A model generated the notes under the pieces. The model was given only the letters and a program-made list of their open reading frames with translations. It ran no database searches and had not been told where the DNA came from. A stretch of 64,000 nt of DNA from a virus (lineage: Duplodnaviria > Heunggongvirae > Uroviricota > Caudoviricetes), in the IMG/VR virus record IMGVR_UViG_3300032167_000069. One strand, given 5' to 3'. Below, in pieces: positions 14,607-57,498 of the stretch; the stretch's first letter is position 1, and every line of letters begins with the position of its first letter. The position numbers and the translations under genes are program-made.

Positions 14607-14614
14607 CTCTCCAA

Positions 14615-15271
14615 TTAGATGTGGCAGTCAACGATAGATAACTCCCATTCTGGATTTGCATTTTTAATAAATCTCTCTGCAAACTTTTCTTTCCATTCTT
14701 CGTACTCATCGTCGGTTTCAGAACTCATTCCCCACCAACCCATATTTCCGGGTGCGTGCCATTGTCCGTTTGGTGTCAATACGGCATATGTACGAAAATC
14801 TTCCATCTTATCAAAATCAATATCTTTAACTTTTGCAGAATTTGCCGTATCTCCATTTTTTAATAGCAAAAGATTGCCCCATCTTCCGCCAATATCATAC
14901 CAGTCCCATTTAGAATTTGGATTATAAGATGAAAATAAAGCTCCATCTTCACGAATATTTTCAGGTTCTTCATACTTAATTGCTTCCTGATAAAATTCCT
15001 CGTCTCCCCAATCAAACCTTTTGGGAAACTCTTCTGATATATACTTTATATGTTCAGGCATTCTTGTGTTTCGTATGTATTCTGCTGGATTTTTCAAATA
15101 CAGAGCATATGTAGTATCTCTATATTGTTCAAAACGCTTACGCTCTCTGCTAATTAACTCCTTTTTTGACGTATAATGTGGAACCTCAAGTCCTTCATCA
15201 TATGGAGCTAAGAGTTCTTCTATACTTTTTCCATTTTGCTCAGTAAAAACTGCAACTGTAAAATGACTCAT
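14615..15271 (-). CDS. Hypothetical protein
   Basis: ORF of 218 aa. Confidence 0.45.
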   Translation of the reverse strand: MSHFTVAVFTEQNGKSIEELLAPYDEGLEVPHYTSKKELISRERKRFEQYRDTTYALYLKNPAEYIRNTRMPEHIKYISEEFPKRFDWGDEEFYQEAIKYEEPENIREDGALFSSYNPNSKWDWYDIGGRWGNLLLLKNGDTANSAKVKDIDFDKMEDFRTYAVLTPNGQWHAPGNMGWWGMSSETDDEYEEWKEKFAERFIKNANPEWELSIVDCHI

Positions 15272-16725: not shown

Positions 16726-18036
16726 CTATTCGTAATTTACTTCATTTTTGTCTGTTCTTAATGCAACAAATACTGGGAACTGCAAACTTTCTGCATTTGT
16801 CCTCTTATCTGTTGATATTTCCTTATATTTAACTTCGCACAACATTCCGATTAAGTCATCCTTTTGCTTCCAATACAGTTGTCGTTGTTCGTCTGAAAAA
16901 CCAGAGCCCACCTTTACCTCGTTTCCTTTGTAATCGAGAACAAGAGCCCCCAACGTGCCTGATAACCTGCCTCCGCCCTCTTCATATCCGATGATTGGCA
17001 AGTCCATAGTATAAAACCGTTTAACTTTTAATATGCCATTATGCCTACAGCACTTATACGGAACATCAAGATTAACCATCAACCCTTCTTTATCCTCTTC
17101 TACCATTTTGTTGAGATAATAATTAATCTTTTCCACATTGCTCCCGCTATATAATACTGGTAGCACTTTTACATCATCACCCAATCGGTGAAGGCGAGAT
17201 ATTTTCATCAAATGTGCTCTTCTAAGAGAATAATTCAACGTTCCTTTATTTGAGCAAAACTCGTCTGTTGGGATTACATCAAACATTGTAAAACAGATAT
17301 CAGATTTATCACCATCGGAGTTAATTATTCCTGTGGCAACTCTAAATGCTTCATTGTCGCTTAATTCTCCCTTGTTTTTTAATGTAAGTTCTCCATCATA
17401 AACCATATCGCCATCAAGACTTTTTAATACCCTGATGATATGATCGAGTCCCTCAAATGGCATTCCGCTTCTTGCAATAAGTTCACCGTTATAGTATGTT
17501 GCTCTCACACCATTTAGTTTCTGAGTAAGAGTAAACCAAGCACCGTCTTTAATCGGATATTTTTCTATTGGGTATGCTTGTTGAACTTCCCATTCCGGAA
17601 TTAAATCAGGAATTACCTTATTAACAGTTTTCGCAGTAATCCCAAGTTTCAAAGACTTGGAGAGAATTTTTATATAAAACACTCTTTCATCTTCTGTGCA
17701 TTTCTTAAATAAGAAAGAATGGATTAACTCTATGAGTGCACTATTCACACTTTTAAGTTTTGATAAATGATCACATAATTCAAAAATATCATCAAACGCA
17801 TCAACCTTACGTTCTACGACTGGACTTACAACTAATTTTTTGGCTATTTCTTTTGAAATGTTATATGTAAGCAGTGGATTTAATGTATAAAAGAGTAGTT
17901 TTATAAACATTTCATTATCTTTGTTGTTTGCGATAATTTCTTGTTTTTTAAGCATTCCTCTTGTGTCTTTCAGCTTATTGATTTGCTCAATAGCCTCTAA
18001 CATCTTTTGCATCAAATCACCCCTTATCGCATTCAT
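16726..18036 (-). CDS. ATP-dependent DNA ligase
   Basis: KLNGVRA is motif I (KxDG/NGxR); the 436-aa ORF is nucleotidyltransferase plus OB sized. Confidence 0.6.
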   Translation of the reverse strand: MNAIRGDLMQKMLEAIEQINKLKDTRGMLKKQEIIANNKDNEMFIKLLFYTLNPLLTYNISKEIAKKLVVSPVVERKVDAFDDIFELCDHLSKLKSVNSALIELIHSFLFKKCTEDERVFYIKILSKSLKLGITAKTVNKVIPDLIPEWEVQQAYPIEKYPIKDGAWFTLTQKLNGVRATYYNGELIARSGMPFEGLDHIIRVLKSLDGDMVYDGELTLKNKGELSDNEAFRVATGIINSDGDKSDICFTMFDVIPTDEFCSNKGTLNYSLRRAHLMKISRLHRLGDDVKVLPVLYSGSNVEKINYYLNKMVEEDKEGLMVNLDVPYKCCRHNGILKVKRFYTMDLPIIGYEEGGGRLSGTLGALVLDYKGNEVKVGSGFSDEQRQLYWKQKDDLIGMLCEVKYKEISTDKRTNAESLQFPVFVALRTDKNEVNYE

Positions 18037-29989: not shown

Positions 29990-30200
29990 ATGTTAACTAA
30001 TGGTGTCTGTTATGTGGATAACTGCTTGGTTTCTTCTGACTTATCCCACTCACCTTTCTTCCCCTCGCCGAGTTCATCGAGCTTCTTTACGTGCCCAGTG
30101 TGAACCGTGCAGTCACCTGCGGGTGCAGGGGAATTCTTTTCCGCCAGCAAAGTGTTACTTCGGCTGACAACACAAAGCGCCTGTAAAAACAAGACAATAC
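29990..30200 (-). ncRNA. Structured GC-rich ncRNA locus A. A paralog of the RT-adjacent ncRNA, sharing a conserved module of about 45 nt.
   Basis: On the plus strand at 30138-30185 it reads ttcttttccgccagcaaagtgttacttcggctgacaacacaaagc. Near-identical modules occur at 34216-34262 and 35150-35192. A GC-rich hairpin-rich unique segment follows. The region is ORF-poor, and the ORF 30010..30285 is just a translation of the repeat. Confidence 0.45.
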
Positions 30201-31166: not shown

Positions 31167-32795
31167 TTATTCGTCGTCTTCAACAACGTCAGTTTCTTCA
31201 ACTGCAATACCATAAGGCACGTCGCTTTCTTCGCACTCATAGTATCCTTCGTTAACTACTGCCTCATTATACTCTCCGCTTTCGGTTGCATCTAATGATG
31301 TATCATCTTTTGAACCACCAAAAATTCCCTTGAGAGGCTCAGCAAAACCCTTAACTAATTCCTGAATTTCGCCACTAAAAGACTGACCATTTAACGCCTT
31401 GTTCTCAACATCAAGCTTCTTCATCATACTGGGAATGCTGGAAAGTGTGTCAATTAAAACGTTTCCAGTTGCACCCTGAGCACTGCTACCACCGATATTT
31501 ACGAATTCTGCATTCTTACCGATGTCAGCCATAATCTGGGCTGTCTTTGTTGCAATTTCAATACGAGCATTAGCTTCAATCTTTAAACGCTCAATCTCAA
31601 AGTTAACCTTGTCATTTCCGGCACGAGCTTCAGCAAGAGCTTTTTCACCTTCGGCTTTTGCAAACAACATAGCCTTTTCTGCTTCAGCTTCCGCAGCACC
31701 CTTTTTGGCAATAATCTCAGCTTCAGTTTCACCCTCAACTTTAATTCTGTTAGCATTTGCCCTCGCTTCCTCTTCGATAGCTTTTGCCTTACCTTTTGCC
31801 ACCTGCTCCATAACCTTAGCTTCCGCCTCTGCGTTGATTGTGGCAACTCGTGCTTCCTCTTCAGCCTTGATTTCTGCCCTTACTCTCTCAGCCTCAGCCT
31901 TTGTTTTGATAACTTCTTTCTCTTTTACAGCCGCAAGATTAGCCTGTTCCTGTCTTACAACAGCCACACGACCTTCCTGTTCTGCAATTTCCTGCAACCT
32001 TACAGTTCTCTGGAGTTCACCAGCGATTTCAGCATCCGCATTTGCCTTGTCTGTTTCAGCCTTAAACTCTGCCTTTTTCAAACTGTTATCTCTGTTCTTT
32101 TCAGCAATCTGAAGCTCAGTATCGAGTTCGCTTTGTTTTGCAGCCTTTTCAGATTCAGCATTCTGCTGTCTAATCTGCTGATTTGCAGTAGCTTTTACTT
32201 TTTCGGCTTCTTTTCTCTTTTCTTCACGGTCAATCGCTGCGATATCATCATAATATCCATACTTATCCGTAATATCCTGAATGTTAAGCGATACAAGCTC
32301 AAGACCCATATCTGTCAATTCATCACTTACAGATTCAACAATTGCTTCCTTAAATGTTTCTTTGTCGTTCTGTACCTGTTCAGGTGTCATACTTGCAACA
32401 ACACTTCTTACAGAACCCATAAGCGTGAGCTTAACATCCTCAATAATACCTCTCTGTCCTCTTTCCTTAAACGAAACAATCGCTTTCTTTAATACATCGA
32501 GGTCTTTTGTGTTAGGTCTAATCTGAGCTGTCCAGTCAACGATAATCGGCACAGATGTTTTTGTCTTAATCTCATCTCCGTCAGTTGGAACTGTTAACAT
32601 ACACAAATCAAAGTATGATGCTTTTCTGAAAATCGGGATAACGAAGCTACCGCCAGAAACCTTGATTTTAGGCTCTTTTCCGCCTGTGATAATTAACGCT
32701 TTGTCAACATCTGCAACTTTGTAGATGCAACAAAGAAAAATAATAAGTGCCGCAAGAATACCAAGTGAAATTCCACCGTAAATTAAAAACTGCAT
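31167..32795 (-). CDS. SPFH/band-7 (flotillin-like) membrane protein with a long Ala/Glu-rich coiled coil
   Basis: An N-terminal TM helix, then an SPFH-like core, then an EA-rich coiled-coil repeat region and an acidic tail. It lies directly downstream of the RT on the same strand. Confidence 0.55.
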   Translation of the reverse strand: MQFLIYGGISLGILAALIIFLCCIYKVADVDKALIITGGKEPKIKVSGGSFVIPIFRKASYFDLCMLTVPTDGDEIKTKTSVPIIVDWTAQIRPNTKDLDVLKKAIVSFKERGQRGIIEDVKLTLMGSVRSVVASMTPEQVQNDKETFKEAIVESVSDELTDMGLELVSLNIQDITDKYGYYDDIAAIDREEKRKEAEKVKATANQQIRQQNAESEKAAKQSELDTELQIAEKNRDNSLKKAEFKAETDKANADAEIAGELQRTVRLQEIAEQEGRVAVVRQEQANLAAVKEKEVIKTKAEAERVRAEIKAEEEARVATINAEAEAKVMEQVAKGKAKAIEEEARANANRIKVEGETEAEIIAKKGAAEAEAEKAMLFAKAEGEKALAEARAGNDKVNFEIERLKIEANARIEIATKTAQIMADIGKNAEFVNIGGSSAQGATGNVLIDTLSSIPSMMKKLDVENKALNGQSFSGEIQELVKGFAEPLKGIFGGSKDDTSLDATESGEYNEAVVNEGYYECEESDVPYGIAVEETDVVEDDE

Positions 32796-32864: not shown

Positions 32865-34019
32865 TCACGATAAATCCCCCTTTATTAGCTTTTCTATGTC
32901 TGCGCCAAACTTCTGGTTATTATGAGAAATAACATAGTTTATATAATCTGGCTCAATCATTCTATAATAGGAAATAAGCCCAGCAAATACTTGTACGTCG
33001 TGCCTATCCCAATTAACGTTTTTCTTTTTGTCGCAAATATAATTGCAACACATAGCTTTGAATGCTTTTTTCTTTTGATGACCAATGGTTATCTCGTTAT
33101 CTTTGTTAAGCATAACACCCAAATTCCAGTTCCGACCAGCGGATGAACCGTATCTCGTTTTTTCTTTTTTGATTGCAAATGGAGCATCAAATCTTTTCAG
33201 AACATCGAGAACATATTCCTGCACCGCTTTGTAATCAAAATTCACTTTTGATGAAATCAAAATATCATCAGCATATCGTGTGTAAACAAAATGCTCGTCC
33301 ATCTTCCTTAAATCATTACAAAGTTGATGGTCGATTGGAATCATCATAATATTGGTGATTGTCGGCGATATAGGTGTTCCCTGTGGCAAACCGCCGTTTA
33401 AAAAACAAAGACTCAAAGCTCTTTTTAAGGCTTCGAGTCCATTTCTTCTTTTCACTATTTCACTAAACGGGAATATTTTTGAAAACATTGATAACACAAA
33501 CTCCTCTGTTGTGCTACCAAAAAAGTCCGAGAAATCAAGTTTTGCGAACCATTTACTTTCGTTCTGCTGATGTCTCTTAATTGAGTCAATTGTGCATCTA
33601 CCTTTTACATATGCAAAAGCAGATGTATGATACAATGCAAACATATTCTTTTCAAAAATAGTTTTCAAATTACGCAATGCATTCATCAATTCAGGTACAG
33701 GTGCATTAATTTCTCTCAAACCGCCACTTTTCTTTGGTATATGGAACGTTTCATACAGCGACTTCCTATCTACCTCAAATAAATTTGCATATTGAGAATT
33801 AAACTGTTCAAGAGCATAAATCATTGCGTTAAAATTGAATTTATCAAGAAATTTTTCGTTTAACTGCTCTCTGTAATGTGTTCTTGTGTTTGTTACATTG
33901 GGCACAATCATTCTTGATACATCAACCGCACCCGCCAGAATATCATCTAATGATAACTGATAATATATTGGCGATTGTTGAATTGTTACATAAGGCATAC
34001 TAATTCTCCTTTCGTACAT
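32865..34019 (-). CDS. Reverse transcriptase, retron/Abi-like type (not DGR type)
   Basis: IPKKSGGLREINAP (RT motifs 1/2), AKLDFSDFFGS (motif 3), GLPQGTPISP (motif 4), YTRYADDILISS (motif 5, YADD). KTRYGSS...NLGVMLN...IGHQKKKAF follows the pattern of the retron region after YADD. AYVKGRCTIDSIKRH sits at the NAxxH position. At 384 aa it has no maturase or endonuclease domain. Confidence 0.75.
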   Translation of the reverse strand: MYERRISMPYVTIQQSPIYYQLSLDDILAGAVDVSRMIVPNVTNTRTHYREQLNEKFLDKFNFNAMIYALEQFNSQYANLFEVDRKSLYETFHIPKKSGGLREINAPVPELMNALRNLKTIFEKNMFALYHTSAFAYVKGRCTIDSIKRHQQNESKWFAKLDFSDFFGSTTEEFVLSMFSKIFPFSEIVKRRNGLEALKRALSLCFLNGGLPQGTPISPTITNIMMIPIDHQLCNDLRKMDEHFVYTRYADDILISSKVNFDYKAVQEYVLDVLKRFDAPFAIKKEKTRYGSSAGRNWNLGVMLNKDNEITIGHQKKKAFKAMCCNYICDKKKNVNWDRHDVQVFAGLISYYRMIEPDYINYVISHNNQKFGADIEKLIKGDLS

Positions 34020-34059: not shown

Positions 34060-34290
34060 GATGCTAAGCTTTTGCTGGTAACTTGGTCATCAGTGAGATG
34101 AGAGTTCATCTGATGAAAACCCAGTATTTATGCGGTATTTCTCTATTGATGGATTTGGGCAGACCTGTCGGGAAGCGTAAGCCACGGCTGTGGGTGATTG
34201 CCATCCTGAGCTGTCTCCCTGTGTTTTTCTCCAGCAAAGTGTTACTTTGGCTTATAACACAAAGCATCTGAAAACTCAGATTATTCATTA
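34060..34290 (-). ncRNA. Structured GC-rich ncRNA locus B, immediately upstream of the RT start (retron msr/msd-like position)
   Basis: Conserved module at 34216-34262. Inverted repeats cttttgctgg (34069-34078) and ccagcaaag (34221-34229) bracket about 160 nt. Several GC hairpins are present. The ORF 34106..34288 is a translation of the repeat. Confidence 0.5.
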
Positions 34291-34873: not shown

Positions 34874-35039
34874 TGAAAATACGCTCCTTTACATATAAAA
34901 TCAGTCTTTTATAAACACCTACGATCAAACATTATAAAATACAATCTTGAGGAAATCCGGATACCTTCGTCGGAACCACTTCAGATATATAAATTATAAA
35001 TTAAAGTAGGGATTTGTCTATGAAAAGTGTTGATAAATT

Positions 35040-35222
35040 GAGAATTTATCGACATAAGGACTTGACAAAGCACGCAATGACCTGTAGTGGAGGTGGTAGC
35101 ACCCGGCATCGGGCTCTGGAGGCGTCATCGCCGTCCCCTTCTTTTCGCCTATCAAAATATCACTTCGGCTGACAACACAAAGCATTTGAAATTAATCAAA
35201 TAATGCATCGTAGGTGTTTATG
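35040..35222 (-). ncRNA. Structured GC-rich ncRNA locus C, immediately 3' of the CLec-like gene stop. Shares the conserved module.
   Basis: cttttcgcctatcaaaatatcacttcggctgacaacacaaagc at 35150-35192, then a unique GC-rich hairpin segment. It shares an 11-nt identity (cccgatgccgg) with the VR-like region of the upstream gene. Confidence 0.45.
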
Positions 35223-35224
35223 GT

Positions 35225-36106
35225 TTATATTGTTAATATTGAAAAAAGTTCTTCTTCAGACACATCTTCGTACACGATTTCAGTTTGGATTACATCATAA
35301 TAACCCATATCGTCTGGTTCGTCACTTATAAGGATTTCAGGATTGATTTTCAAAGCGGGACGGACACCCAAAATGCCATCATACGCACTGCAATAGTAGT
35401 AATCACCGCCACGACTGACGTACCTGACGCCGCAACCACCGCCGGCATCGGGAGAACGGAGCAAATAATACCAGTTCTCGTCATATTCCACTTCTTCATC
35501 AACATTAGAATATTCTACGGCGTAATCAGTGGGCATAGCGGCTCTATCTGCATTTATTTCATTTTTAAAATATTCCCAGTAATCACCTTCGGACACGTTT
35601 CTTATTGTTCCACCGTACAAATTGGTGTATGAAGGCAGAAATACCTTTCTGGTTATTACGTCAAGTCGCTCATCTTCACGGGTCACTTCGCAATCAGGAA
35701 GTGCCGTCATTACCGTAGAATCATCTATTGCATCAATTTCCCAGCCCTCAAAAAATCTCAAGAAGCCGTGATGATTTGCATATCCTGTGTTTCCTGAAAC
35801 CAAATTTCCTGTGGGTGGCTCATCGTATTCGTGGCGTTTAATAAAGCATTCATCATCGCTACTGTTTAAAAACTGGTCGATATTTGATACCGAGTAGCGA
35901 TTATTACCATAACGCTGACGATAAGCATCGGGGTTTTCCACTTCTCTCGCATCGAATGCACGGAAATCCTCAATCCTTTCTGACATAAAGGTATTATCTC
36001 CGTTTACCTTTATCCAAGTAATCTTATGAGTACCCTCATCGCCAATACTATACGCACCAAAACGCACCTTTTCGCCAACATTGAGTTCGCTTATTCTTCG
36101 TGCCAT
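35225..36106 (-). CDS. CLec/FGE-fold protein with a DGR-variable-region-like C-terminus (putative receptor-binding/adhesin-type protein)
   Basis: The C-terminus NWYYLLRSPDAGGGCGVRYVSRGGDYYYCSAYDGILGVRPAL resembles FGE/CLec-type DGR target ends (LRS...RGG...GxRP/C.). It is Y/S/G-rich. Confidence 0.5.
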   Translation of the reverse strand: MARRISELNVGEKVRFGAYSIGDEGTHKITWIKVNGDNTFMSERIEDFRAFDAREVENPDAYRQRYGNNRYSVSNIDQFLNSSDDECFIKRHEYDEPPTGNLVSGNTGYANHHGFLRFFEGWEIDAIDDSTVMTALPDCEVTREDERLDVITRKVFLPSYTNLYGGTIRNVSEGDYWEYFKNEINADRAAMPTDYAVEYSNVDEEVEYDENWYYLLRSPDAGGGCGVRYVSRGGDYYYCSAYDGILGVRPALKINPEILISDEPDDMGYYDVIQTEIVYEDVSEEELFSILTI

Positions 36107-36128: not shown

Positions 36129-36800
36129 TTAAAAAGCATCGACAGTATGACCAAAAGCATCAATTAAAATCAACTTACTGATACTGCCACCTTTTGCAAA
36201 ATTTATAAAATTAGATACACCGTGGGCAACAATCATTCTAACCGTCGGAACAACAGAAAGAGTCATATTACAAGCTGACACAGGTGTTTCGGCTTTTGCT
36301 TCTTCGTGAGTAAAAGCCATAGATTTAAGGAAATCTTCAACCATCTTCTTATTCTTCCAGTCCGCAGCATAATGCTGAGCGTCTGTAAGTCTCATACGGA
36401 AATCGAACATAGCTTTTACATAAGGATTGTCCTTGCAACTTTCCGCAATTTCACGTCTCAAATCAATGTTATCAACACAGAGGAAAACATAGCCAGACAA
36501 CTTCTGCCCTACATATCCTTTGTCAACAAGCTTGATTTCCTTTTTTACTTCAGGGTTGATTTCGTAAAGCATATCTGCCAATGCCTCAACCTTTGTTTTT
36601 CCGATATCAACCTGTCTGAACATCTGATTCGCAATGTTGTGTGGTTCTACGTGGTCAAAATCATAAAGAGTTATATTTGTGAGACCAAATCTGACAAGAT
36701 TTTCTGCGACCGTAGAGCCGATTGCACCACAGCCTATAATGTGTAATCTTTCTTTGCACATTTCAGGCTGAAAAAATTCATATGATTTTGCTAAATCCAT
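36129..36800 (-). CDS. ThiF/MoeB-family E1-like adenylyltransferase
   Basis: IIGCGAIGS is a Rossmann nucleotide loop. LYDFDHVEPHNIANQ fits E1. At 223 aa it is a minimal E1. Confidence 0.6.
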   Translation of the reverse strand: MDLAKSYEFFQPEMCKERLHIIGCGAIGSTVAENLVRFGLTNITLYDFDHVEPHNIANQMFRQVDIGKTKVEALADMLYEINPEVKKEIKLVDKGYVGQKLSGYVFLCVDNIDLRREIAESCKDNPYVKAMFDFRMRLTDAQHYAADWKNKKMVEDFLKSMAFTHEEAKAETPVSACNMTLSVVPTVRMIVAHGVSNFINFAKGGSISKLILIDAFGHTVDAF

Positions 36801-36812: not shown

Positions 36813-37703
36813 TTATGTATCAAATCTGTCCTGACGATAGATATCATAAGCCTCATCTTCCATATCCTCAGAACCTCTGTTTTTCCAACCACTACCAACA
36901 TTAGATTTACCCTGCTGGTGTTGGTTTACTTTAGGCTTTTCCTTATCTTTTCCGGTGCTCGGTGTGTTATTTGCAGGCTTTGTACTACCGTTATACCCAC
37001 CATATCCACCGTTATAACCGCCATAGCTTTTTCCACCATAACTATACCCAGTTACAACCGTTGTCTTCTTTTTAACCTGCTCTTTTGCTTCCTCAACAAA
37101 AGCATCAAGGTCGTATCCGTCACCAAGAATGCCATACGAAATATCCTTGTTTTCATACAAAGTGTTGTTCTGGAGATCGTAAATCTTTGTGTTATTCTCC
37201 AGTTTCTTGTTCCAAATCATAAAAATATAATACATATCATCTGTAAGCTGAGCGAGAATGCTCTCCTGATGATTTGTATCAACCGCAGACGGTGTGGTGC
37301 CGAAATTTACGTGGCTATGACCCTGCATAATGATGTGATTAAAACGTTCATCTTCAATGTTGTCCATAATCCATTTAGCATACGCTTCTGTGTCCATTTC
37401 AACCGTAGAGCCCGTTACCGTCTGAGGATACACAACAAGGTCTGAAATAAGGAAGTTTGCACCCTCAATGCGCTCACCGACACCGTGCCAAGCAACCTCT
37501 GAATCAAAAGACATAAGTAATGCAATCATTTTTGAATAAGCTTCCGGTGTAAAGAAGATTGTTGCTTTTTCATCTTCTTTATATGTAAAATTCTTATTGT
37601 AGCTGATTTTTCCATCAGCCATTTTTGTTCCAGCAAGTGTTTTTGCAAACTCTTCAAGTGCCTGTTTCTTTAACTCTTCTGTGAGTTTAATAGGTTTTGC
37701 CAT
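36813..37703 (-). CDS. JAMM/JAB (MPN+) metallopeptidase with a Gly/Tyr-rich C-terminal tail
   Basis: HSHVNFGTTPSAVD carries the HxH...S..D JAMM motif; an upstream E is present. The tail is GYSYGGKSYGGYNGGYGGYNG. Confidence 0.6.
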   Translation of the reverse strand: MAKPIKLTEELKKQALEEFAKTLAGTKMADGKISYNKNFTYKEDEKATIFFTPEAYSKMIALLMSFDSEVAWHGVGERIEGANFLISDLVVYPQTVTGSTVEMDTEAYAKWIMDNIEDERFNHIIMQGHSHVNFGTTPSAVDTNHQESILAQLTDDMYYIFMIWNKKLENNTKIYDLQNNTLYENKDISYGILGDGYDLDAFVEEAKEQVKKKTTVVTGYSYGGKSYGGYNGGYGGYNGSTKPANNTPSTGKDKEKPKVNQHQQGKSNVGSGWKNRGSEDMEDEAYDIYRQDRFDT

Positions 37704-39166
37704 TATTTTTCGACCTCCTGTGCTTCATTTTCCTGTTCCTGACTTAAAAGCCAGTTATATGCTTCTGTAGGCGTGCAAGATGTTCCATCGGGAAGCTGAA
37801 TTACAGCCTTACAACTTGATGTGAACAATCTACCCATAAATGGTGCAACCGTCTGTGAGCCCTCTGACAAATTGAGGTTTTTCGCAGATGATACACACTG
37901 TTCTATAGCAGCGATATAATCGCCTTTTGCTAAAAGCTGGTCTATGAGCGGTCTGTTATTTCCGATACAAGCATGGAAATCAAAATGAGGATTTGTTAAA
38001 TAGTCATTATATTCCATCGGATAATCATATCTCTGTATCGTATCAACTCTACCACGCATATCTAAATCGTAGTACGCACGTACTTTAATCTTTAATAATG
38101 GTTCATCGCCAAAAACAGCATCGAGCAATTTCTTTCGAGCTGCTTCTTCGTAAAAAGCTTCCGCAGAAACATTATAACCAGTAAACAAATAGCTTCTCGA
38201 ATTTTTCGTCATACGCTCGTACATCTCAGGATCATAATTTTCAATAGTTGTACCAACAATGATTTTTATGTGCTGATTGTCAACATATATTGGGTTAATA
38301 TGTCTGTTACAAACAAAGTAATCAACAATTTCCGAATCATTGCCAGCTTCTTTTATCTGATAAGCCAAGCCACTCTCTTTAATACGAAGATTATCCATAT
38401 TTTCAATCATATTCTGATAATCTGCCATTAAACGTTCCATTCTTGACTGCTGATTTGCAATTTCATTCTTTACAACATCCAACTGTCTCTGTTTTGCTCT
38501 GGCTTCAAACCCGCCGAGCAATTTCTGTATCTGTGCAGTTCTGAAGTCATATTTTGATGCAAACTCCTCAATAATTCTCTCATATTCAGGAGCATAACGG
38601 TTGGTGAGTGCTTTTACGAGAGCCTTTTCTTCTTCATTGATAGGATTCTCTGCGAAATACCACGGCACCAACCTTGAGATAAGCGACTGTATAAAGTGCC
38701 AAATTCTTGTATTAAGACACGCAACAAATATTGCGACGCTTTTCTCTTCCTCATTTATATAAAAACGAACATTTGCCTGCTTTGCAACGAATACGTGAAG
38801 GTCTTCCAATTCTGTAAATTTAGGATAGACCTGTGTAAAATGACTTTCAATCTTATTGAAAGATGTAGTAATACTGCTTTCTGTACCATTGAAACCGCAA
38901 ACAAAGATCGTGTTATTGCCTATGCCATCTGACAGAATTCTTACTATATCCTCATCAGAATAATCTCTCAATGAGGAATCTCTGTCATTTCTAACCTTAA
39001 CATTTAATGAAATGTGTTCCTTTTTCTTCATTCTTGGAGCTAACAAAGCTCTGAGTGTCGCAAGAAACGAATTATCACCGTTAAAAGTTGCGCCCACAAT
39101 GTTAGGAAACATTTCGTTTGCAATTTCGTTTGTCAGAGTCAGTCCATATAATTCTTTATTAAACAT
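37703..39166 (-). CDS. Hypothetical 487-aa protein in the Ubl-E1-JAB operon (possible E2-like or accessory; unassigned)
   Basis: ORF translationally coupled to the JAB gene; no motif recognised. Confidence 0.45.
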   Translation of the reverse strand: MFNKELYGLTLTNEIANEMFPNIVGATFNGDNSFLATLRALLAPRMKKKEHISLNVKVRNDRDSSLRDYSDEDIVRILSDGIGNNTIFVCGFNGTESSITTSFNKIESHFTQVYPKFTELEDLHVFVAKQANVRFYINEEEKSVAIFVACLNTRIWHFIQSLISRLVPWYFAENPINEEEKALVKALTNRYAPEYERIIEEFASKYDFRTAQIQKLLGGFEARAKQRQLDVVKNEIANQQSRMERLMADYQNMIENMDNLRIKESGLAYQIKEAGNDSEIVDYFVCNRHINPIYVDNQHIKIIVGTTIENYDPEMYERMTKNSRSYLFTGYNVSAEAFYEEAARKKLLDAVFGDEPLLKIKVRAYYDLDMRGRVDTIQRYDYPMEYNDYLTNPHFDFHACIGNNRPLIDQLLAKGDYIAAIEQCVSSAKNLNLSEGSQTVAPFMGRLFTSSCKAVIQLPDGTSCTPTEAYNWLLSQEQENEAQEVEK

Positions 39167-39280: not shown

Positions 39281-39511
39281 TTACGCAGCGTTGTCAGCCT
39301 TAACAACGTTAAGGAGATAACACTTCTCAGTAATTCCGTGCTGAGCAAAAGTCTTATCGAGATCGCCGGGGTTAAGTGAAGAACCGTCAAGATGCATTAC
39401 ACCACTTGTGTAATCAATGCCGTTATCCTCAAGCACCGCTCTTAAAGTTGTGTTTTCGTCAACAATAACTGCTTCTCTTCTTGTGTTATTACCAATAGTT
39501 ACCTTAATCAT
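39281..39511 (-). CDS. Ubiquitin-like beta-grasp protein (ThiS/MoaD/Ubl-like), 76 aa, with no terminal GG
   Basis: MIKVTIGNNTRREAVIVDENTTLRAVLEDNGI...LDGSSL... has a ThiS/Ubl-like pattern. Its size and its position at the head of the E1/JAB operon agree. Confidence 0.45.
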   Translation of the reverse strand: MIKVTIGNNTRREAVIVDENTTLRAVLEDNGIDYTSGVMHLDGSSLNPGDLDKTFAQHGITEKCYLLNVVKADNAA

Positions 39512-40401: not shown

Positions 40402-41964
40402 TTACCCCCTCAAAACATCTTCGATTGGCTGGTATCTTTCCGAGTTGATTGTTTCAAGTAAACATTCATACGGGTCTGTCTTTCCGCTCATAACCATTTT
40501 ACAAATATTTACCGAAAATCCACTCACGAGAGCAACGCCCAGCTTGTTACTTCTCACCGGAATTGTTCCCGTTCTTGAATTAACATTCCAGAAAACAAGC
40601 CTTGGCAATTCATAGCCAACCTGCTTATATCTTGCACCAATTACATCGAACAACTTATCGTTTTTAATTGCATAGTCGCAATTATATCTTCCGCCGTGTC
40701 CAACAGTTGCACAACCATCAAATTCCATATCAGAAATAATCAGGATGTTCTTCGGCATATCTTCCTGTGCCATATTGTTATTAACCGCAGTTTTCAAAAT
40801 TAAGTCAAATACTGCTTCGATATTTGTATTGGCAACTTCGTTATGCTGAGCCGCAATAGCCAATTTATCTCTCAGGCTATTAGCGTGTCCAAAGTCAACC
40901 AATTGTGGACGTTCAGAGAAAGTAATATATTTATCTTTTAGGCACCCCGAAGACCTTTCTGCGAAATATACAGCCAAGCTGTTAGCAACTTCAAGAGCCG
41001 TTACATTTGTGCCACCTACTGTTGTTCTCATAGAACCAGAACCATCAGCTACAACAATTGTGTTTCCGCAACCCTCAACCATATCAGGAAGATTGTTCCA
41101 GAGAGCTTCAACAGAAGCATCATAATCCTTTAACTGATTTCCATAGTATCCGTAACTACCAGCATAATACTTGTGAACAATGTCGTGCGGATAAAGTGTT
41201 GCCGCATTGATTTTTGCTTCGCCATTTTCAATTTTGCCGAGAAACTCTCTTCTTCTTTCCTCGTCGTTTCTTAAAAAGGCATTATTATAAATAAGGTTTG
41301 CACGTGACGGAACCGTTTCATAGTTGATTTCGCCCCACTGCTTTGCAGACATCTTAATTTCGACAACATCAATGTGTTTGCGAAGCTTACTCAAAAGCTT
41401 ACGATAGTCAGCCTCTTTGATATCTAAGTGCTTACGAATTATTTTTGAAAGTTTTTTACTTTCCTCTGAAGACGCATTTGCTGACGGAAGCCATTTTGCT
41501 AACAATGAGATTGGCTTGCCATTTTCGCACCCCTCGACGTCAGCTTTAAGCTGTTTCTTTATGTATTCAATAACCGCACCGCAAAGTTTTTCGTTTTCAA
41601 GGAAAACCCACAAATCATCGAATCTTCCGTATTCTGCAACAAGCGGAATAAGCTTTTCGGCAAAATCGGATTCGTATTCAGCAACAAATTTCATCGCCGT
41701 TCTGAACAATCTACGCTCACCCAAACCACCACGGACATCTCTTGCAAAGAAAAGCCATTTCATAGCAAGGATTTTATCCTCAAGAAATGCTGCCGCAAAC
41801 TTCTTTGCAATACCCTCTTCGCTTGCTGAACGCAACGATGCAACCGCAAAATTGATGTCAAGCAAATTCTTGCCGGTTGTTTTATAACCAAGTGCACCGT
41901 TTTCTGTTGTGGATGTGTTGAAATCTTCAAGTGCAGTTTCTTTTAACTTCTCAATAAATGACAT
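40402..41964 (-). CDS. Helical N-domain + C-terminal vWA (MIDAS) protein; Ro60/Rsr-like (TROVE-like + vWA) architecture
   Basis: A C-terminal vWA domain with a MIDAS motif (TIVVADGSGSMRTT ... ILIISDMEFD). An N-terminal helical domain of about 330 aa. Total of 520 aa, matching Ro60/Rsr domain order and size. TROVE identity was not verified. Confidence 0.45.
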   Translation of the reverse strand: MSFIEKLKETALEDFNTSTTENGALGYKTTGKNLLDINFAVASLRSASEEGIAKKFAAAFLEDKILAMKWLFFARDVRGGLGERRLFRTAMKFVAEYESDFAEKLIPLVAEYGRFDDLWVFLENEKLCGAVIEYIKKQLKADVEGCENGKPISLLAKWLPSANASSEESKKLSKIIRKHLDIKEADYRKLLSKLRKHIDVVEIKMSAKQWGEINYETVPSRANLIYNNAFLRNDEERRREFLGKIENGEAKINAATLYPHDIVHKYYAGSYGYYGNQLKDYDASVEALWNNLPDMVEGCGNTIVVADGSGSMRTTVGGTNVTALEVANSLAVYFAERSSGCLKDKYITFSERPQLVDFGHANSLRDKLAIAAQHNEVANTNIEAVFDLILKTAVNNNMAQEDMPKNILIISDMEFDGCATVGHGGRYNCDYAIKNDKLFDVIGARYKQVGYELPRLVFWNVNSRTGTIPVRSNKLGVALVSGFSVNICKMVMSGKTDPYECLLETINSERYQPIEDVLRG

Positions 41965-42076: not shown

Positions 42077-42224
42077 GGTGGGGATGGTAGGATTTGAACC
42101 TACGAAATCTTCTTGATTTACTGTTTTATGAAAAAGATTGCTGTTGGTGTCAAACTAAACACCTTTCATTAGACAATTTCCTTCAGCCACTTGGATACAT
42201 CCCCAAATATTTAATTATCATCCT
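42077..42224 (-). ncRNA. Oversized tRNA-like ncRNA (about 148 nt) with class-II D-arm, T-arm and acceptor, plus an internal insert carrying the AACAGCAAT motif
   Basis: Acceptor ggggatg/catcccc, D-arm tcc-aagtggctgaa-gga, variable hairpin aaatc-aagaa-gattt, T-arm gtagg-ttcaaat-cctac. The insert contains the ggtgtttagtttgacacc hairpin followed by aacagcaat. Confidence 0.5.
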
Positions 42225-42449: not shown

Positions 42450-42571
42450 TGGTGAGGGTGGCAGGACTCGAACCTACGACACACGGCTCCCAAAGCATTA
42501 AGAATATTGCTGTAAGCGTTTATCACTAAACACATTCTTATACGTTGCTCTGCCAACTGAGCTACACCCTC
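42450..42571 (-). ncRNA. Oversized tRNA-like ncRNA (122 nt) with the GTGATAAAC...ACAGCAAT insert
   Basis: Acceptor gagggtg/caccctc, canonical D-arm gctcagttggcagagc, T-arm, encoded CCA. A 45-nt structured insert (helix taagaat/attctta; hairpin gttta-gtga-taaac; acagcaat) replaces a normal anticodon arm. Confidence 0.5.
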
Positions 42572-43776: not shown

Positions 43777-44167
43777 AAAAAGCTTTTATAATCCCAAATT
43801 ATATGCATTAAATATTGCTGCGTGTGTCTTTAAAAGGTATATATCAATCCGCAAATGCGGTTATTGTTGAATGTTGGGTAAGTTTTTGCTTACCCGACGG
43901 AATTTCACCGTCCCATTACTCTAAAACCCGACCACCCATTACATAATCTACGAAAAGTTATGTAAAATGCCTTTGAGTAAATTGAACTTCACAAAAATTA
44001 GAAACGAGAGGCTAAAAAGTTTCAGAAAGGAGATGCTACTTCTTAGACCAAAAGAAGTATTTGCGCTGTGTTATGCCAAAAACTGACAGCAAAGCAAAAT
44101 CAAAAAATTTGTAAATTTGATAATATGTTTTATTATGTATTTGCTGTAAGCCTCTCTTATATGTTGA

Positions 44168-44286
44168 GCGGCGGGTGAGAATCGAACTCACGACACATAG
44201 TTTGGATTCTTGAAAAAATCGCTGTTAGTGAAGTTTATCACTCCACATTTTTTCGACTATTATTCTACCATCTGAACTACCGCCGC
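44168..44286 (-). ncRNA. Oversized tRNA-like ncRNA (119 nt) with the GTGATAAAC...ACAGCGAT insert
   Basis: Acceptor gcggcgg/ccgccgc, D-arm gttcagatggtagaat, T-arm gtgag-ttcgatt-ctcac. The insert has an 8-bp helix gaaaaaat/attttttc, then hairpin gtggag-tgataaa-cttcac, then aacagcgat. Confidence 0.5.
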
Positions 44287-44290: not shown

Positions 44291-44409
44291 GGTGCCCAGA
44301 GTTGGACTCGAACCAACGACCACGGAGTTACCAGCTCAATATAAAGTTGCAGTTTAAGGCTTTTTCAAACCTCAATTATTACGTGCTCTACCGACTGAGC
44401 TATCTGGGC
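44291..44409 (-). ncRNA. Oversized tRNA-like ncRNA (119 nt) with the GAAA-tetraloop hairpin plus AACTGCAAC insert
   Basis: Acceptor gcccaga/tctgggc, canonical D-arm gctcagtcggtagagc, T-arm gttgg-ttcgagt-ccaac. The insert is aggttt-gaaa-aagcct followed by aaactgcaac. Confidence 0.5.
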
Positions 44410-50747: not shown

Positions 50748-51578
50748 ATGGGAACCATTATTTCAATTGACTTTACATCAAAGGTGAATAAGAAGAATGA
50801 CGGTATCATAAATGCAAAGGTTGTATCCGACTCCCGAAGATACCTTAAAAGAGATGCTCTTCTTCCGGCTCAAGAAGAAGTTCATATCGAACTTGCAAAC
50901 GAGCATACATCAGAACCAATTAAAAGCCTTGAAGATATAGAACGTTTTTCAAGCTATCTCATAAACAATGGTAGATACAGAGACAATATGCTCTTTATAG
51001 TTGGTATTAACTTTGGACTTCGTGTAAGTGATTTATTACAGTTAAGATTTACTCAGCTCATTAATGATGACCTATCTTTCAAAACCACATTCCCTATTCT
51101 GGAAAAAAAGACTAAGAACACCAGAAAGGTAAGACGTAACAGATACTTAACCATTAATGATGCAGTAATGGATGCAATTACACTGTACCTTGAACATACG
51201 CAGTGCAGGCTTGACGATTATATGTTCCGCAGTGAAAGCAACAGAGGCTCTAATCTTAACAAACCAATGAGCAGAATGTCAGTTGACCGCATTCTCAAAG
51301 AGGTTGCTAACACACTCAATTTGGATGTCAAGATTGCTACTCACACTATGAGAAAGACATTTGCTTATCATCAGATGTTAATGTCCAACAACGATCCTCG
51401 TAAACTTTTATTATTACAAAAGATGTTTGGACACTCATCAGCAGCACAGACACTCGACTACATCGGTATTACTGGTGAAGAGATTGAAGAAGCTTATATA
51501 AAGCTCAACTTGGGAAGCAGAGACCATTATCTTGTTGATAGCGTTATACAGGAGACTACATATTATCCTGCAAGCTAA
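50748..51578 (+). CDS. Tyrosine recombinase/integrase (small)
   Basis: ATHTMRKTFAYH gives HxxR. C-terminal LDYIGIT carries the catalytic Tyr. An arginine-containing box I region is present. Confidence 0.6.
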   Translation: MGTIISIDFTSKVNKKNDGIINAKVVSDSRRYLKRDALLPAQEEVHIELANEHTSEPIKSLEDIERFSSYLINNGRYRDNMLFIVGINFGLRVSDLLQLRFTQLINDDLSFKTTFPILEKKTKNTRKVRRNRYLTINDAVMDAITLYLEHTQCRLDDYMFRSESNRGSNLNKPMSRMSVDRILKEVANTLNLDVKIATHTMRKTFAYHQMLMSNNDPRKLLLLQKMFGHSSAAQTLDYIGITGEEIEEAYIKLNLGSRDHYLVDSVIQETTYYPAS

Positions 51579-51853
51579 TTAACAAACATTGTACCTTGAC
51601 AACTGAATACTGAAATCATAGAAGAACATTATCTCGCTCGAACTAAAGCTGTAAGTAAGATACGTTACATTGTCTTGCCGTATCTTACTCAACGAAATCA
51701 ACAGACCTAAAGAATGTCTACGTCACTATTAGACCCCGATTTTTAAAACCGCATATTTACGGGCTTTTCGGGCATCAAAAATTCAATTTTACAACCCAAA
51801 AGTTTTAAATGCGAGTTTTCGGGACGACAAAAACAACTTAAAAAAGGAGGAAT

Positions 51854-53131
51854 TTGATGGCGATAAAAGTATGTGATGCCATTATGGGCTCTGGTAAGTC
51901 CAGTGCGGCTATCAACTATATGAATGCACATCCTACACAAAAGTTTATATATATAACACCCTACTTAGAAGAAGCGGCAAGGATACGCAACTCTTGCCCC
52001 GACCTTCATTTCAAAGAACCCAGTAACAAGATACCTGAGTTCGACTTTCGTAAGTTTAAACACACAATTGAGTTAATCAACGCTGGCGAGAATATAACCA
52101 GTACACACAATATGTTCTTGAGATACTCGGACGATATGATAGATATGATTCGCAAACAGGGTTATACGCTGATTGTTGATGAAGCGGTTGAAGTATTGAG
52201 ACCTTCCTCTATCACCAAATCGGATATGATGCTTCTGGAAAGTGCCGGTTGGGTATCTAAAGAGGGCGACGTTATAAAGCTACTACCATCTTTTAACTAT
52301 GAGTATGGATTAGCCAGTGAGATTGTGGCTCTATCCAAGGGCAATCGTCTTGTAGATATGCCCGATGTAAAACAAGGTAATGTTTATTATTACTGGCTAT
52401 TTTCAAAAGACATACTTATGGCGTTTAAAGATGTGTTTGTTCTTACCTACTTGTTTGAAGCACAGACAATGAAGTATTATTTTGACATTGCTGATATTCC
52501 TTACAGATATATCGGTATTGTAAAGGATAAAAAGGGATTTCATTTTAGCGAAACACCTCAATATATCCCCGAATATACAAAAGAGCTCTCAAGTAAGATA
52601 CATATTTTCGATAATGACAAAATCAATTCTGTTGGCGACGATAAACACGCATTATCATTTACGTGGTTTAAGAAGAGCACGGAAGCTGTAAAGAATAACA
52701 AAGAAGCTTTGAAGAAAAATGTATATAACTTTTTCATCAACTACCACAGAGATAAACCGTCGAACACCCGGTTGTGGGCAACTTATAAGACCGGTCAATC
52801 ATTATTGAGGGGAAAAGGTTATTTTTACAGCGATATTGCTTTTAATACAAAGGCAACAAATGACTATCGTGATAAGCAGGTTCTTGCATATTGCGTTAAC
52901 ATATTTATGCAACCAAATGAGAAGCAGTATCTTTTAAATAGCGGAGTTGATATACAAGAAGACAGATATGCACTATCTGTAATGATACAATGGATATGGC
53001 GTTCTGCTATTCGTGATGGTAAAGAAATATGGATTTATATTCCAAGCAAAAGAATGCGCACACTTCTTCAAGATTGGATTGAGGAAACCGAGCGTAAATA
53101 CTATATACATATTAAAGGAGAAACAGCATGA
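51854..53131 (+). CDS. P-loop NTPase (Zot-like / replication or assembly ATPase)
   Basis: GGAGG RBS. Walker A AIMGSGKSS near the N-terminus; Walker B LIVDEA. Confidence 0.45.
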   Translation: MMAIKVCDAIMGSGKSSAAINYMNAHPTQKFIYITPYLEEAARIRNSCPDLHFKEPSNKIPEFDFRKFKHTIELINAGENITSTHNMFLRYSDDMIDMIRKQGYTLIVDEAVEVLRPSSITKSDMMLLESAGWVSKEGDVIKLLPSFNYEYGLASEIVALSKGNRLVDMPDVKQGNVYYYWLFSKDILMAFKDVFVLTYLFEAQTMKYYFDIADIPYRYIGIVKDKKGFHFSETPQYIPEYTKELSSKIHIFDNDKINSVGDDKHALSFTWFKKSTEAVKNNKEALKKNVYNFFINYHRDKPSNTRLWATYKTGQSLLRGKGYFYSDIAFNTKATNDYRDKQVLAYCVNIFMQPNEKQYLLNSGVDIQEDRYALSVMIQWIWRSAIRDGKEIWIYIPSKRMRTLLQDWIEETERKYYIHIKGETA

Positions 53132-53661
53132 GCAAAACATTAAATGACACACAGAGGAAACTCGTAGAAGATAATCATAATCTTATATATTCATACATAC
53201 ATAGTCACAAACTTAACCTTGATGCAGTCGAAGATTGGTACGGAGCTGCGGCAGTTGGGTTGTGCAAAGCAGCTCTTATTTATGACGAGAGCAGAGGTTG
53301 CAAATTTTCCACTCTGGCTTATTTGTGCATAGATAACGAAGTTAAGATGGAAATGCGACGAAACCGCAAGCTTGTATCACCCACTTTGAGTTTGCACGCA
53401 CCGATTAATCAGGCAGATGGTTGTTGTATGGCTGATATTATACCAGATAACCAAGATTTTATGTTTTCAATATATCTGAATGATGCGGTAGCGATTACAA
53501 CCAAAGGATTAAGTAAAAGAGATAGCGAGTTTATACATCTGATTTTTGAACAAGGATATACTCAAAAAGAAGTTGCAGATAAGTTTGGAGTATCAAGAAC
53601 ACTCGTACAAAGGGTATATAGCTCATTTAAGAAAAAAATCAGAGATTATTTTGCTGAATAA
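53128..53661 (+). CDS. Sigma-70 family RNA polymerase sigma factor (phage-encoded)
   Basis: Region-2-like AAAVGLCKAALIYDESRG...LAYLCIDNEV. Region-4 HTH GYTQKEVADKFGVSRTLVQRV. Confidence 0.6.
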   Translation: MSKTLNDTQRKLVEDNHNLIYSYIHSHKLNLDAVEDWYGAAAVGLCKAALIYDESRGCKFSTLAYLCIDNEVKMEMRRNRKLVSPTLSLHAPINQADGCCMADIIPDNQDFMFSIYLNDAVAITTKGLSKRDSEFIHLIFEQGYTQKEVADKFGVSRTLVQRVYSSFKKKIRDYFAE

Positions 53662-53771
53662 GCATTATTTTTTAAATCTATCAAAACAATTATAAAGAGT
53701 AAAAGGAGTGATGCGTTATTTCTAAGCAACAGACATCTCAAAAATACATATTTAAGATACATAGCGCCCGT

Positions 53772-57208: not shown

Positions 57209-57348
57209 TTTATCAATACAATTATAAACAATATTTTCGATTTGAGCATTTCCAGAAAGGTGCGAGAAATCGCATCTTTTTGGGGTTGGTTCAATCTGTC
57301 TATAATGATAGAAAATAAACATTTTTCGGAACGAAAGGATATTTTTAA

Positions 57349-57495
57349 TGATTAAAATTACTCAACAAGAAGCAAAACTTATCAGAAAATATTATCCGTA
57401 TGTCAATATTACACGAACTGTACACAAGTACTATATGGATGAAAATGATAAGGCGATTAAGTTTCTAAAAAACTATAACACGAATAAGGAGTGAG
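57349..57495 (+). CDS. Small hypothetical protein (48 aa, below the ORF-track threshold)
   Basis: gaaagga RBS-like sequence about 10 nt before the ATG. MIKITQQEAKLIRKYY... Confidence 0.25.
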
Positions 57496-57498
57496 GGC

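What the first reader, a model, noticed from the sequence alone, without database searches (positions are those of the whole stretch)
35225..36106. CLec/FGE-fold protein ends in a sequence that looks like a DGR variable region, but no template repeat is visible
The C-terminus ...NWYYLLRSPDAGGGCGVRYVSRGGDYYYCSAYDGILGVRPAL has the composition and conserved framing (LRS, RGG, GxRP) of variable regions in C-type-lectin-fold DGR targets. The neighbouring RT is not DGR-type, and none of the three ncRNA bodies aligns to this region with adenine-only differences. Locus C, right after the stop, shares only 11 nt (cccgatgccgg). Either this is a non-diversified adhesin, or its TR lies outside the window, or the retron-like RT with its ncRNAs diversifies it by a non-canonical route.
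Basis: partly seen in the sequence, partly recalled or inferred. Interest (0 to 1): 0.7.

Follow-up and report, generated by a model that had tools for sequence, protein, structure and literature searches.

The report
Remote DGR target; template found 60 kb away
The gene encodes a lectin-fold binding protein of a 123-kb sheep-gut phage whose tip really is hypermutated by a diversity-generating retroelement, but the template and its enzyme lie about 60 kb away outside the window, so this is a clear, ordinary example of a known system and not a new mechanism.

Summary
Window 35225-36106 (-) encodes a 293-aa DUF6273 protein. Its AlphaFold model (pLDDT 91) has a C-type-lectin/FGE-like fold. The window holds no template repeat (TR), and the neighbouring RT is retron-type.

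I located the TR on an ENA contig that overlaps both window ends at 100% identity, which closes a 123,135-bp circular map. There a canonical cassette reads Avd, then TR (112 nt), then a DGR-type RT. It has no target beside it.

- The TR matches window 35353-35464 (-) at 100 of 112 bases. All 12 mismatches sit at TR adenines.
- All 17 adenine-containing TR codons vary among close homologues, against 2 of 20 adenine-free codons.
- No TR adenine is at a third codon position.
- The VR lies 59.6-63.3 kb from the TR, on the opposite strand.

A second DGR cassette with an adjacent 2181-aa DUF6273 target sits just upstream of the first. The retron-like RT and its three ncRNA loci carry no TR homology and are not needed to explain the variation.

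DUF6273 proteins are published DGR targets, including remote ones. This is a new member of a known kind.

The parts
35225..36106 (-). DGR target gene: a 293-aa single-domain DUF6273 (CLec-like) protein. It starts 22 nt after the stop of the upstream ThiF-like gene, so it is probably co-transcribed with it.
35342..35995 (-). DUF6273 / C-type-lectin-like domain, residues 38-255.
35353..35464 (-). Variable region (VR): the 112 nt homologous to the template repeat TR1, which lies outside the window at L038 13559-13670.
   Evidence: BLAST of the gene's 3' part against L038 gives 100/112 identical, with 12 mismatches, all 12 at adenines of the TR.
35372..35434 (-). Hypervariable core, codons 225-245. 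It contains the 17 codons that have an adenine in the TR.
   Evidence: Within-cluster variation maps here. The amino-acid sets at each position fit A-to-N changes of a single codon. 17 of 17 A-containing TR codons vary against 2 of 20 A-free codons, Fisher p = 1.2e-8, and no TR adenine is at codon position 3.
35355..35368 (-). G+C-rich 3' end of the VR/TR homology (GGTGTCCGTCCCGC), a candidate IMH-like element. Homology to the TR stops 2 nt further on.
   Evidence: VR/TR alignment. The assignment as IMH is an inference by analogy with phage BPP-1. No significant hairpin follows it (z = 0.58).
35228..35341 (-). Conserved, non-variable acidic C-terminal tail (KINPEILISDEPDD...EELFSILTI) ending in a helix. 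It is probably a docking or oligomerisation segment.
   Evidence: Nearly invariant among 43 homologues while the VR just upstream varies. Helix 284-292 in the model, pLDDT about 70. The function is inferred.

Best explanation
The gene encodes a small ligand-binding protein with a C-type-lectin-like (DUF6273) fold. Its binding surface is rewritten by a canonical diversity-generating retroelement (DGR) located elsewhere in the same phage genome, a 123-kb SPbeta-like phage from sheep gut and related samples.

The cassette reads Avd1 (137 aa, four-helix-bundle protein), TR1 (112 nt), then RT1 (378 aa, DGR clade). It sits at the end of the tail module, just before the endolysin and integrase genes. 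That is 59.6-63.3 kb from the VR, and on the opposite strand.

Proposed mechanism:
1. TR1 is transcribed.
2. RT1 with Avd1 copies it into cDNA, inserting random bases opposite the 24 template adenines.
3. The cDNA replaces the homologous 112 nt of the target gene.
Seventeen codons can therefore change while the scaffold codons stay fixed. No stop codon can arise, because no adenine is at a third codon position.

What is shown: the TR/VR pair with adenine-only mismatches; the Avd and DGR-type RT flanking the TR; physical linkage to the window genome; variation in the population confined to the TR-adenine codons; and VR framework bases that follow the cognate TR in a second strain.

What is inferred: that RT1, rather than the neighbouring RT2, does the copying; the homing step itself; and the biological role (binding of a host-surface or other ligand).

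The adjacent retron-like RT and its ncRNA loci form a separate element.
For: 1. Finding the TR. A framework pattern with N at the variable positions hit two contigs of one MAG (Ruminococcus sp. RGIG6142, sheep rectum). One hit is the VR. The other is a TR flanked by an Avd-like ORF and an RT carrying LPIGYQSSQ and YVDDF.

2. The cassette in the window's own strain. Locus L038 (ENA contig k141_2666649) carries TR1 at 13559-13670, between bAvd (13119-13532) and RVT_1 (13806-14942).

3. Adenine-only mismatches.
- Window VR against TR1: 12 mismatches, 12 at TR adenines.
- L001 VR against the identical TR of the same sample: 14 of 14.
- MAG VR against its own TR: 7 of 7. That VR also shares the non-adenine substitutions specific to its TR.

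4. Physical linkage.
- The contig overlaps the window at 100% identity over 13,386 nt at one end and 1,748 nt at the other.
- The target protein, the tail tube protein and Avd1 all report the same longest-contig length, 116,166 nt. This is a contig-length match, not a contig I read.

5. RT identity. RT1 is 48% identical to the DGR RT of phage nd12 (E = 3e-123). It aligns with the window's retron-like RT at only 26% over 134 aa.

6. Population pattern. Hypervariability is confined to the VR in five 90%-identity clusters. It coincides codon by codon with the TR adenines.

7. Fold. The CLec fold is confirmed.

8. Literature. DUF6273 is a published DGR target domain with the VR at its C-terminus, including remote single-domain targets.
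Against: - The identical VR allele, at 100% nucleotide identity over the whole gene, occurs in 10 contigs from several samples. Homing may therefore be infrequent, or this clone may have spread recently.
- No hairpin or cruciform follows the VR. Such a structure enhances homing in phage BPP-1.
- No target lies next to TR1 within 13.5 kb upstream or 6.7 kb downstream. That is an unusual layout.
- About 13 kb of the genome was not seen.
- Nothing shows which of the two RTs acts on TR1, or what the protein binds.
Confidence: 0.93

Rival explanations
1. The neighbouring retron-type RT (32865-34019) and its ncRNA loci diversify the gene by a non-canonical route.
For: The RT lies 1.2 kb downstream of the target. 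This adjacency is conserved in every lineage examined, down to 40% target identity. ncRNA locus C sits directly after the stop codon and shares an 11-mer with the VR.
Against: - No ncRNA locus, and nothing else in the window, has TR-like homology.
- A canonical Avd-TR-RT cassette with 12 of 12 adenine mismatches accounts for the VR.
- The 11-mer contains mutagenised bases and is absent from the TR and from other alleles.
- The L003 ortholog has the retron-like RT, yet its equivalent region has ordinary composition, with K/E codons and third-position A.
- All of this RT's best NCBIfam and PADLOC matches are retron RT models, whereas the DGR RT of phage nd12 matches a different set of models.
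Confidence: 0.01
2. The VR is a relic. The protein was diversified in the past, but the DGR no longer acts on it in this strain.
For: The same allele occurs at 100% identity in 10 contigs from several samples. The target is 60 kb away, inverted, and has no downstream hairpin.
Against: - TR1, Avd1 and RT1 are intact, and the VR shows zero non-adenine mismatches over 112 nt.
- L001 comes from another sample with an identical TR. Its whole gene differs from the window's at 16 nt, and 8 of these lie in the VR, all at variable codons.
- The MAG strain's VR carries the non-adenine changes of its own TR, which indicates transfer after the TRs diverged.
Confidence: 0.05
3. It is a non-diversified adhesin whose C-terminus only resembles a VR by composition.
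For: Some orthologs (P0052-P0063 and L003) have ordinary sequence in this region. Similar framework motifs (WxxxLRSP...GxRPAL) occur in non-phage DUF6273 proteins.
Against: Population variation is confined to the TR-adenine codons, and a cognate TR exists.
Confidence: 0.01

Closest known systems
tgt2 proteins of gut phages nd4 and nd12 (Baykov et al. 2023, PMC10743442)
   Same: Both are single-domain DUF6273 / CLec-like proteins of about 290-300 aa, flanked by short helices, with the VR at the C-terminal end of the domain. Both are encoded away from the DGR cassette, among non-structural genes. In both phages a second, large DUF6273 target lies next to a cassette. In nd12 I re-found TR 17824-17925 with VR1 (14 of 14 A) and the remote VR2 at 31950-32025 (13 of 13 A).
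   Different: In nd4 and nd12 one TR serves both targets, and the remote one is 12-14 kb away. Here the remote target has its own Avd-TR-RT cassette, separate from the cassette that serves the large tail protein. It lies about 60 kb away on the opposite strand. Sequence identity to the nd12 domain is only 32%.
Second DUF6273 target of Toutatisvirus gut phages (bioRxiv 10.1101/2024.10.15.618418)
   Same: Both are core-genome DUF6273 proteins of unknown function with a C-terminal VR, located far from the TR (17.5 kb there). The authors also note that some phages keep the targets but lack the DGR. That parallels the orthologs here with ordinary sequence in this region.
   Different: It belongs to a different phage group, has one cassette for two targets, and the distance is shorter.
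Bordetella phage BPP-1 DGR (Mtd / TR / Brt / Avd)
   Same: Both have adenine-specific TR-to-VR transfer, a CLec-fold target with the VR at the end of the domain, an Avd four-helix-bundle protein, and a G+C-rich 3' end of the VR (established knowledge of the family).
   Different: The BPP-1 target is adjacent to the cassette and is followed by a cruciform. Here the target is remote and inverted, with no detectable hairpin. Mtd is a tail-fibre tip protein, whereas the location of this protein in the virion or in the cell is unknown.
Treponema denticola TvpA (PDB 2y3c) and Thermus TaqVP (5vf4)
   Different: Sequence identity is 8-13%. They are bacterial lipoproteins or surface proteins, and they are not DUF6273 members.

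Membership tests
Diversity-generating retroelement (DGR) target / VR | A TR/VR repeat pair whose mismatches are (almost) all at adenines of the TR | tested here: met
   Window VR 35353-35464 against TR1 (L038 13559-13670): 100/112 identical, 12 of 12 mismatches at TR adenines. Two further strains give 14 of 14 and 7 of 7.
Diversity-generating retroelement (DGR) target / VR | A DGR-clade reverse transcriptase next to the TR, with the [I/L/V]GxxxSQ motif and YxDD | tested here: met
   RT1 (L038 13806-14942) contains LPIGYQSSQ and YVDDF. It is 48% identical to the nd12 DGR RT, E = 3e-123, and has a precomputed Pfam RVT_1 hit.
Diversity-generating retroelement (DGR) target / VR | An accessory variability determinant (Avd) in the cassette | tested here: met
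   A 137-aa ORF lies directly upstream of TR1. Its precomputed Pfam hit is bAvd (weak), and NCBI names it 'four helix bundle protein'.
Diversity-generating retroelement (DGR) target / VR | TR and VR on the same replicon | tested here: met
   ENA contig k141_2666649 carries TR1 and overlaps both window ends at 100% identity. The target protein and Avd1 both report a longest contig of 116,166 nt.
Diversity-generating retroelement (DGR) target / VR | Hypervariability in natural populations limited to the TR-adenine codons, with stop codons avoided | tested here: met
   Five 90%-identity clusters vary only in residues 225-246. 17 of 17 A-containing codons vary against 2 of 20 A-free codons, and no adenine is at codon position 3.
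Diversity-generating retroelement (DGR) target / VR | An IMH at the 3' end of the VR, followed by a hairpin/cruciform (BPP-1 type) | tested here: inconclusive
   A G+C-rich 14-mer ends the homology. The 108 nt downstream fold no better than shuffles, z = 0.58. No VR/TR difference of the IMH/IMH* kind could be defined within the homology.
Diversity-generating retroelement (DGR) target / VR | Ongoing mutagenic homing (cDNA synthesis and VR replacement) | not testable with these tools
   This needs reads or an experiment. The indirect evidence is allele differences between near-identical strains that share one TR.
DUF6273 (PF19789), CLec-like fold | A Pfam match above the gathering score | tested here: met
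   68.8 bits against a cut-off of 23.5, covering profile positions 3-171 of 172.
DUF6273 (PF19789), CLec-like fold | A C-type-lectin / FGE-like three-dimensional fold | tested here: met
Retron (for the neighbouring RT only, considered as a possible diversifier) | A retron-clade RT | tested here: met
   NCBIfam retron_St85_RT at 181 bits, below the 235-bit cut-off. All top PADLOC hits are retron RT models.
Retron (for the neighbouring RT only, considered as a possible diversifier) | An ncRNA that carries a template homologous to the VR, which would be needed for it to be the diversifier | tested here: not met
   No TR-like homology exists in loci A, B or C, or anywhere else in the window.

The most novel reading that the evidence does not exclude
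The diversified CLec protein may not be a virion receptor-binding protein. It would instead be an early- or middle-expressed soluble or intracellular binder. It is encoded in the non-structural, minus-strand gene block. It starts 22 nt after a ThiF/E1-like gene, which follows a JAB-like gene, and it lies next to a retron-like element. It is served by its own DGR cassette, which has no adjacent target. On this reading a phage uses a DGR to diversify a host-takeover or counter-defence factor rather than an adsorption protein.
Probability: 0.12. Interest if true: 0.75.

Novelty: new member of a known kind. Interest (0 to 1): 0.33.

Why it matters
It settles the finding. The apparent 'variable region without a template next to a retron' is a canonical DGR acting on a distant target, not a new retron-based diversification route.

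The case has some value beyond that:
- It shows that a reader limited to a window, and metagenome surveys that require the VR next to the RT (Roux et al. 2021 state this limit), will miss targets of this kind.
- It documents a phage with two tandem DGR cassettes. One serves an adjacent 2181-aa DUF6273 protein in the tail-gene region. The other has no target nearby, and its only identified target is a small DUF6273 protein about 60 kb away on the other strand.
- It adds a large, well-sampled family to the single-domain 'tgt2-type' DUF6273 targets, whose function is still unknown. This family counts 140 homologues at E ≤ 0.001, some of them standing for 90%-identity clusters of up to 202 members.

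Tried and rejected
1. A scan of metagenome contigs with an 'every base or A' pattern matched only a poly-A tract in an unrelated contig. It did not even find the VR, so that collection lacks this phage.

2. I looked for the TR within 10 kb of the target in six lineages (L001, L002, L003, L011, L012, L030/L031), and in the 7-9 kb beyond both window ends. None was found.

3. I searched 1.84 billion representative proteins with the 49-aa VR segment, looking for a second target with the same framework. The 11 hits included orthologs and unrelated DUF6273 proteins, but no second target. That agrees with TR1 having a single known target.

4. I tried to walk along the contig from the tail tube protein with a homology search. 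Registering exact sequences through the listing of cluster members solved this.

5. The phage collection has no close relative at the DNA level. By protein it holds only nd4, nd12 and Bacillus jumbo phages, at 33% identity or less.

6. Rfam has no family matching the three ncRNA loci.

7. The TR of a second lineage (L041) is not cognate to any VR I hold at the DNA level. Its translation does have the same framework residues as the L011 VR.

8. I did not test whether phages with ordinary-sequence orthologs (for example the L003 contig) lack cassette B.

Full report
**1. The observation**

It matches Pfam DUF6273 over residues 38-255 (E = 6.7e-19).

- FGE-like domains such as PvdO;
- dozens of animal C-type lectin domains;
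- the DGR protein TaqVP.

The CLec/FGE fold is therefore real.

The neighbouring RT (32865-34019, -) is retron-type. Its best NCBIfam hit is retron_St85_RT at 181 bits, below that model's cut-off. All its best PADLOC hits are retron RT models. A bona fide DGR RT from phage nd12 hits a quite different set of models.

The window contains no template repeat. Four tests found none:
- an ungapped scan tolerant of adenine mismatches;
- a BLAST self-comparison scored for A/T-biased mismatches;
- an IUPAC pattern allowing 'VR base or A' at each position;
- a pattern of the invariant (framework) bases with N at the variable positions.

The two pattern searches matched only the VR itself. The BLAST method recovered the known TR and both VRs of phage nd12, with 14 of 14 and 13 of 13 adenine mismatches. 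A regular-expression search for YxDD found no second RT-like ORF in the window.

**2. Is the region really hypervariable?**

Yes. In an alignment of 43 homologues, the segment WYYxLRSP...GVRPAL alternates invariant and free positions. The 45 residues after it are almost invariant even at 89% overall identity.

Within five clusters of sequences at 90% identity or more, variation is confined to about 20 positions of residues 225-246.

For the window's own lineage (13 sequences), the amino acids at every variable position can be produced from a single codon by changing adenines only. Examples are {Y,C,S,F} from TAC, {D,G,V} from GAC and {I,V,F,L} from ATT. That is the signature of adenine-specific mutagenesis, not of generic fast evolution.

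**3. Finding the template**

No TR lies within 10 kb of the target in six lineages, nor in the 7-9 kb beyond the window ends.

A pattern made of the invariant framework bases of this lineage, with N at the variable positions, was scanned through one genome per species. It hit two contigs of one MAG, Ruminococcus sp. RGIG6142 from sheep rectum. One hit is the VR. The other is an adenine-rich copy...CCC AAT GCC GAC AAT GGT TAC AAC GTC AGG.... It lies between a 137-aa ORF and a 390-aa RT that carries the DGR hallmark LPIGYQSSQ and YVDDF.

The 137-aa protein is named 'four helix bundle protein' by NCBI.

A look-up of the neighbouring Avd2 then returned locus L038, from ENA contig k141_2666649 of 106,354 nt. 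Other loci from this contig overlap the window at 100% identity: window 1-13,386 (L028) and window 62,253-64,000 (L035). Window and contig together close a circular map of 123,135 bp.

On L038 the gene order is:
- tail genes;
- a 2181-aa DUF6273 protein, with VR2 at 9649-9779;
- Avd2;
- TR2 at 10409-10539, with 15 of 15 adenine mismatches to VR2;
- RT2;
- two small genes;
- Avd1 at 13119-13532;
- TR1 at 13559-13670;
- RT1 at 13806-14942;
- endolysin;
- integrase.

**4. The decisive comparison**

TR1 matches window 35353-35464 (-) at 100 of 112 positions. All 12 mismatches are at TR adenines, and none is at another base.

Two other strains behave the same way:
- L001, from a sample whose TR is identical, shows 14 of 14.
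- The MAG's VR against its own TR shows 7 of 7. That VR also carries the non-adenine substitutions that distinguish its TR from TR1. This is what one-way TR-to-VR transfer predicts.

All 17 TR codons that contain an adenine are variable in the population, against 2 of 20 adenine-free codons (Fisher p = 1.2e-8). No adenine sits at a third codon position, so nonsense codons cannot arise.

RT1 is 48% identical to the nd12 DGR RT (E = 3e-123). It is only marginally similar to the window's retron-like RT, at 26% over 134 aa.

In the window's coordinate frame TR1 lies at 98,758-98,869 on the + strand. The VR is on the - strand, 63.3 kb away in one direction and 59.6 kb in the other.

TR1 has no VR within 13.5 kb upstream or 6.7 kb downstream. 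A relative with a 72%-identical RT1 (L041) shows the same layout: an orphan TR1-like repeat plus an adjacent TR2/VR2 pair.

**5. What the neighbours are not**

The retron-like RT and the three ncRNA-like loci are a separate element. Those loci share a 51-nt block at 30137-30187, 34224-34274 and 35142-35192. Locus C is bracketed by a perfect 15-nt inverted repeat, 34911-34925 and 35207-35221.
- They contain nothing homologous to the VR.
- Their adjacency to the target is conserved in every lineage examined, down to 40% target identity. That includes L003, whose equivalent region has ordinary composition with AAA, GAG, GAA and ATA codons.
- The 11-mer shared by locus C and the VR includes two mutagenised bases. 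It is absent from the TR and from other alleles, so it is coincidence.

**6. Comparison with what is known**

DUF6273 is a published CLec-like DGR target domain with the VR at its C-terminus. Three precedents apply:
- Phages nd4 and nd12 have a large adjacent target plus a small, single-domain, remote 'tgt2'.
- Toutatisviruses have a core-genome DUF6273 target 17.5 kb from the TR.
- Some of those phages keep the targets without the DGR.

Remote targets are acknowledged to be missed by contig-based surveys.

The present case is therefore a new member of a known kind. Its particular features are:
- a separate Avd-TR-RT cassette that has no adjacent target;
- two cassettes in tandem;
- a distance of about 60 kb and inverted orientation;
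- no detectable hairpin after the VR;
- a location in the non-structural gene block, directly after a JAB-like gene and a ThiF/E1-like gene.

**7. Caveats**

- The same VR allele is found at 100% nucleotide identity in 10 contigs from several samples. Homing at this site may be infrequent.
- Which RT copies TR1, whether homing is ongoing, whether the protein is part of the virion, and what it binds are all inferred or unknown.
- About 13 kb of the genome was not examined.

Noticed in passing
window 32865-34019 (-); 30137-30187, 34224-34274, 35142-35192; 34911-34925 / 35207-35221: A retron-type RT lies near three ncRNA-like loci that share an 85-nt conserved 5' part and then diverge. Locus C is bracketed by a perfect 15-nt inverted repeat resembling retron a1/a2. 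None matches an Rfam family. The RT is adjacent to the DUF6273 gene in every lineage examined. A phage-borne retron-like RT with several candidate ncRNAs deserves its own study.
   Followed up: partly
window 34960-35140 compared with L009 and L010: Between related strains, the central part of ncRNA locus C is far more diverged than its flanks. It shows 20-23 differences per 60 nt, including an insertion, which is more than in the DGR variable region itself. This is unexplained.
   Followed up: no
L038 3240-9785, 10001-10354, 10409-10539, 10788-11915 (outside the window): A second DGR cassette sits in the same phage, just upstream of the first. It comprises a 2181-aa DUF6273 protein in the tail-gene region with VR2 at 9649-9779, then Avd2, TR2 (15 of 15 adenine mismatches) and RT2.
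   Followed up: partly
window 36129-36800 (-), 36813-37703 (-), 37703-39166 (-), 39281-39511 (-): Directly upstream of the target, in conserved synteny, lie a ThiF/E1-like protein, a JAB-like protein, a 487-aa protein with no family match in Pfam, NCBIfam or PADLOC, and a 76-aa protein that I did not scan. On my reading this could be a ubiquitin-like conjugation module, and the 76-aa protein might be the ubiquitin-like component, but that was not tested. The DUF6273 gene starts 22 nt after the ThiF-like gene's stop.
   Followed up: partly
window 42079-42204, 42453-42571, 44167-44286, 44293-44409, 25176-25283 (-): Several tRNA matches are unusually long, at 108-126 nt against the 71-position model. 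This suggests introns or large insertions. They lie within arrays totalling 13 tRNA genes.
   Followed up: no
window 35225-36106, compared with L012-L021: The whole target gene, including the hypervariable region, is 100% identical at the nucleotide level in 10 contigs from several JGI, ENA and Logan samples. Either one clone is widespread or homing at this site is infrequent.
   Followed up: partly
window 50748-64000 (+) and L023/L033: The late genes match the Pfam Yon/Yom families (YonV, YonJ, YonG, YonD, YonB, YomX, YomW, YomV, YomU). These names come from Bacillus phage SPbeta, so the phage is SPbeta-like. The circular map is 123,135 bp. The phage was binned into a Ruminococcus sp. MAG from sheep rectum.
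   Followed up: partly
window 40402-41964 (-) and 31167-32795 (-): A DUF2828/DUF7788 protein and an SPFH/Band-7 protein flank the region that holds the target and the retron-like RT. Both are conserved in relatives. Their roles are unknown.
   Followed up: no
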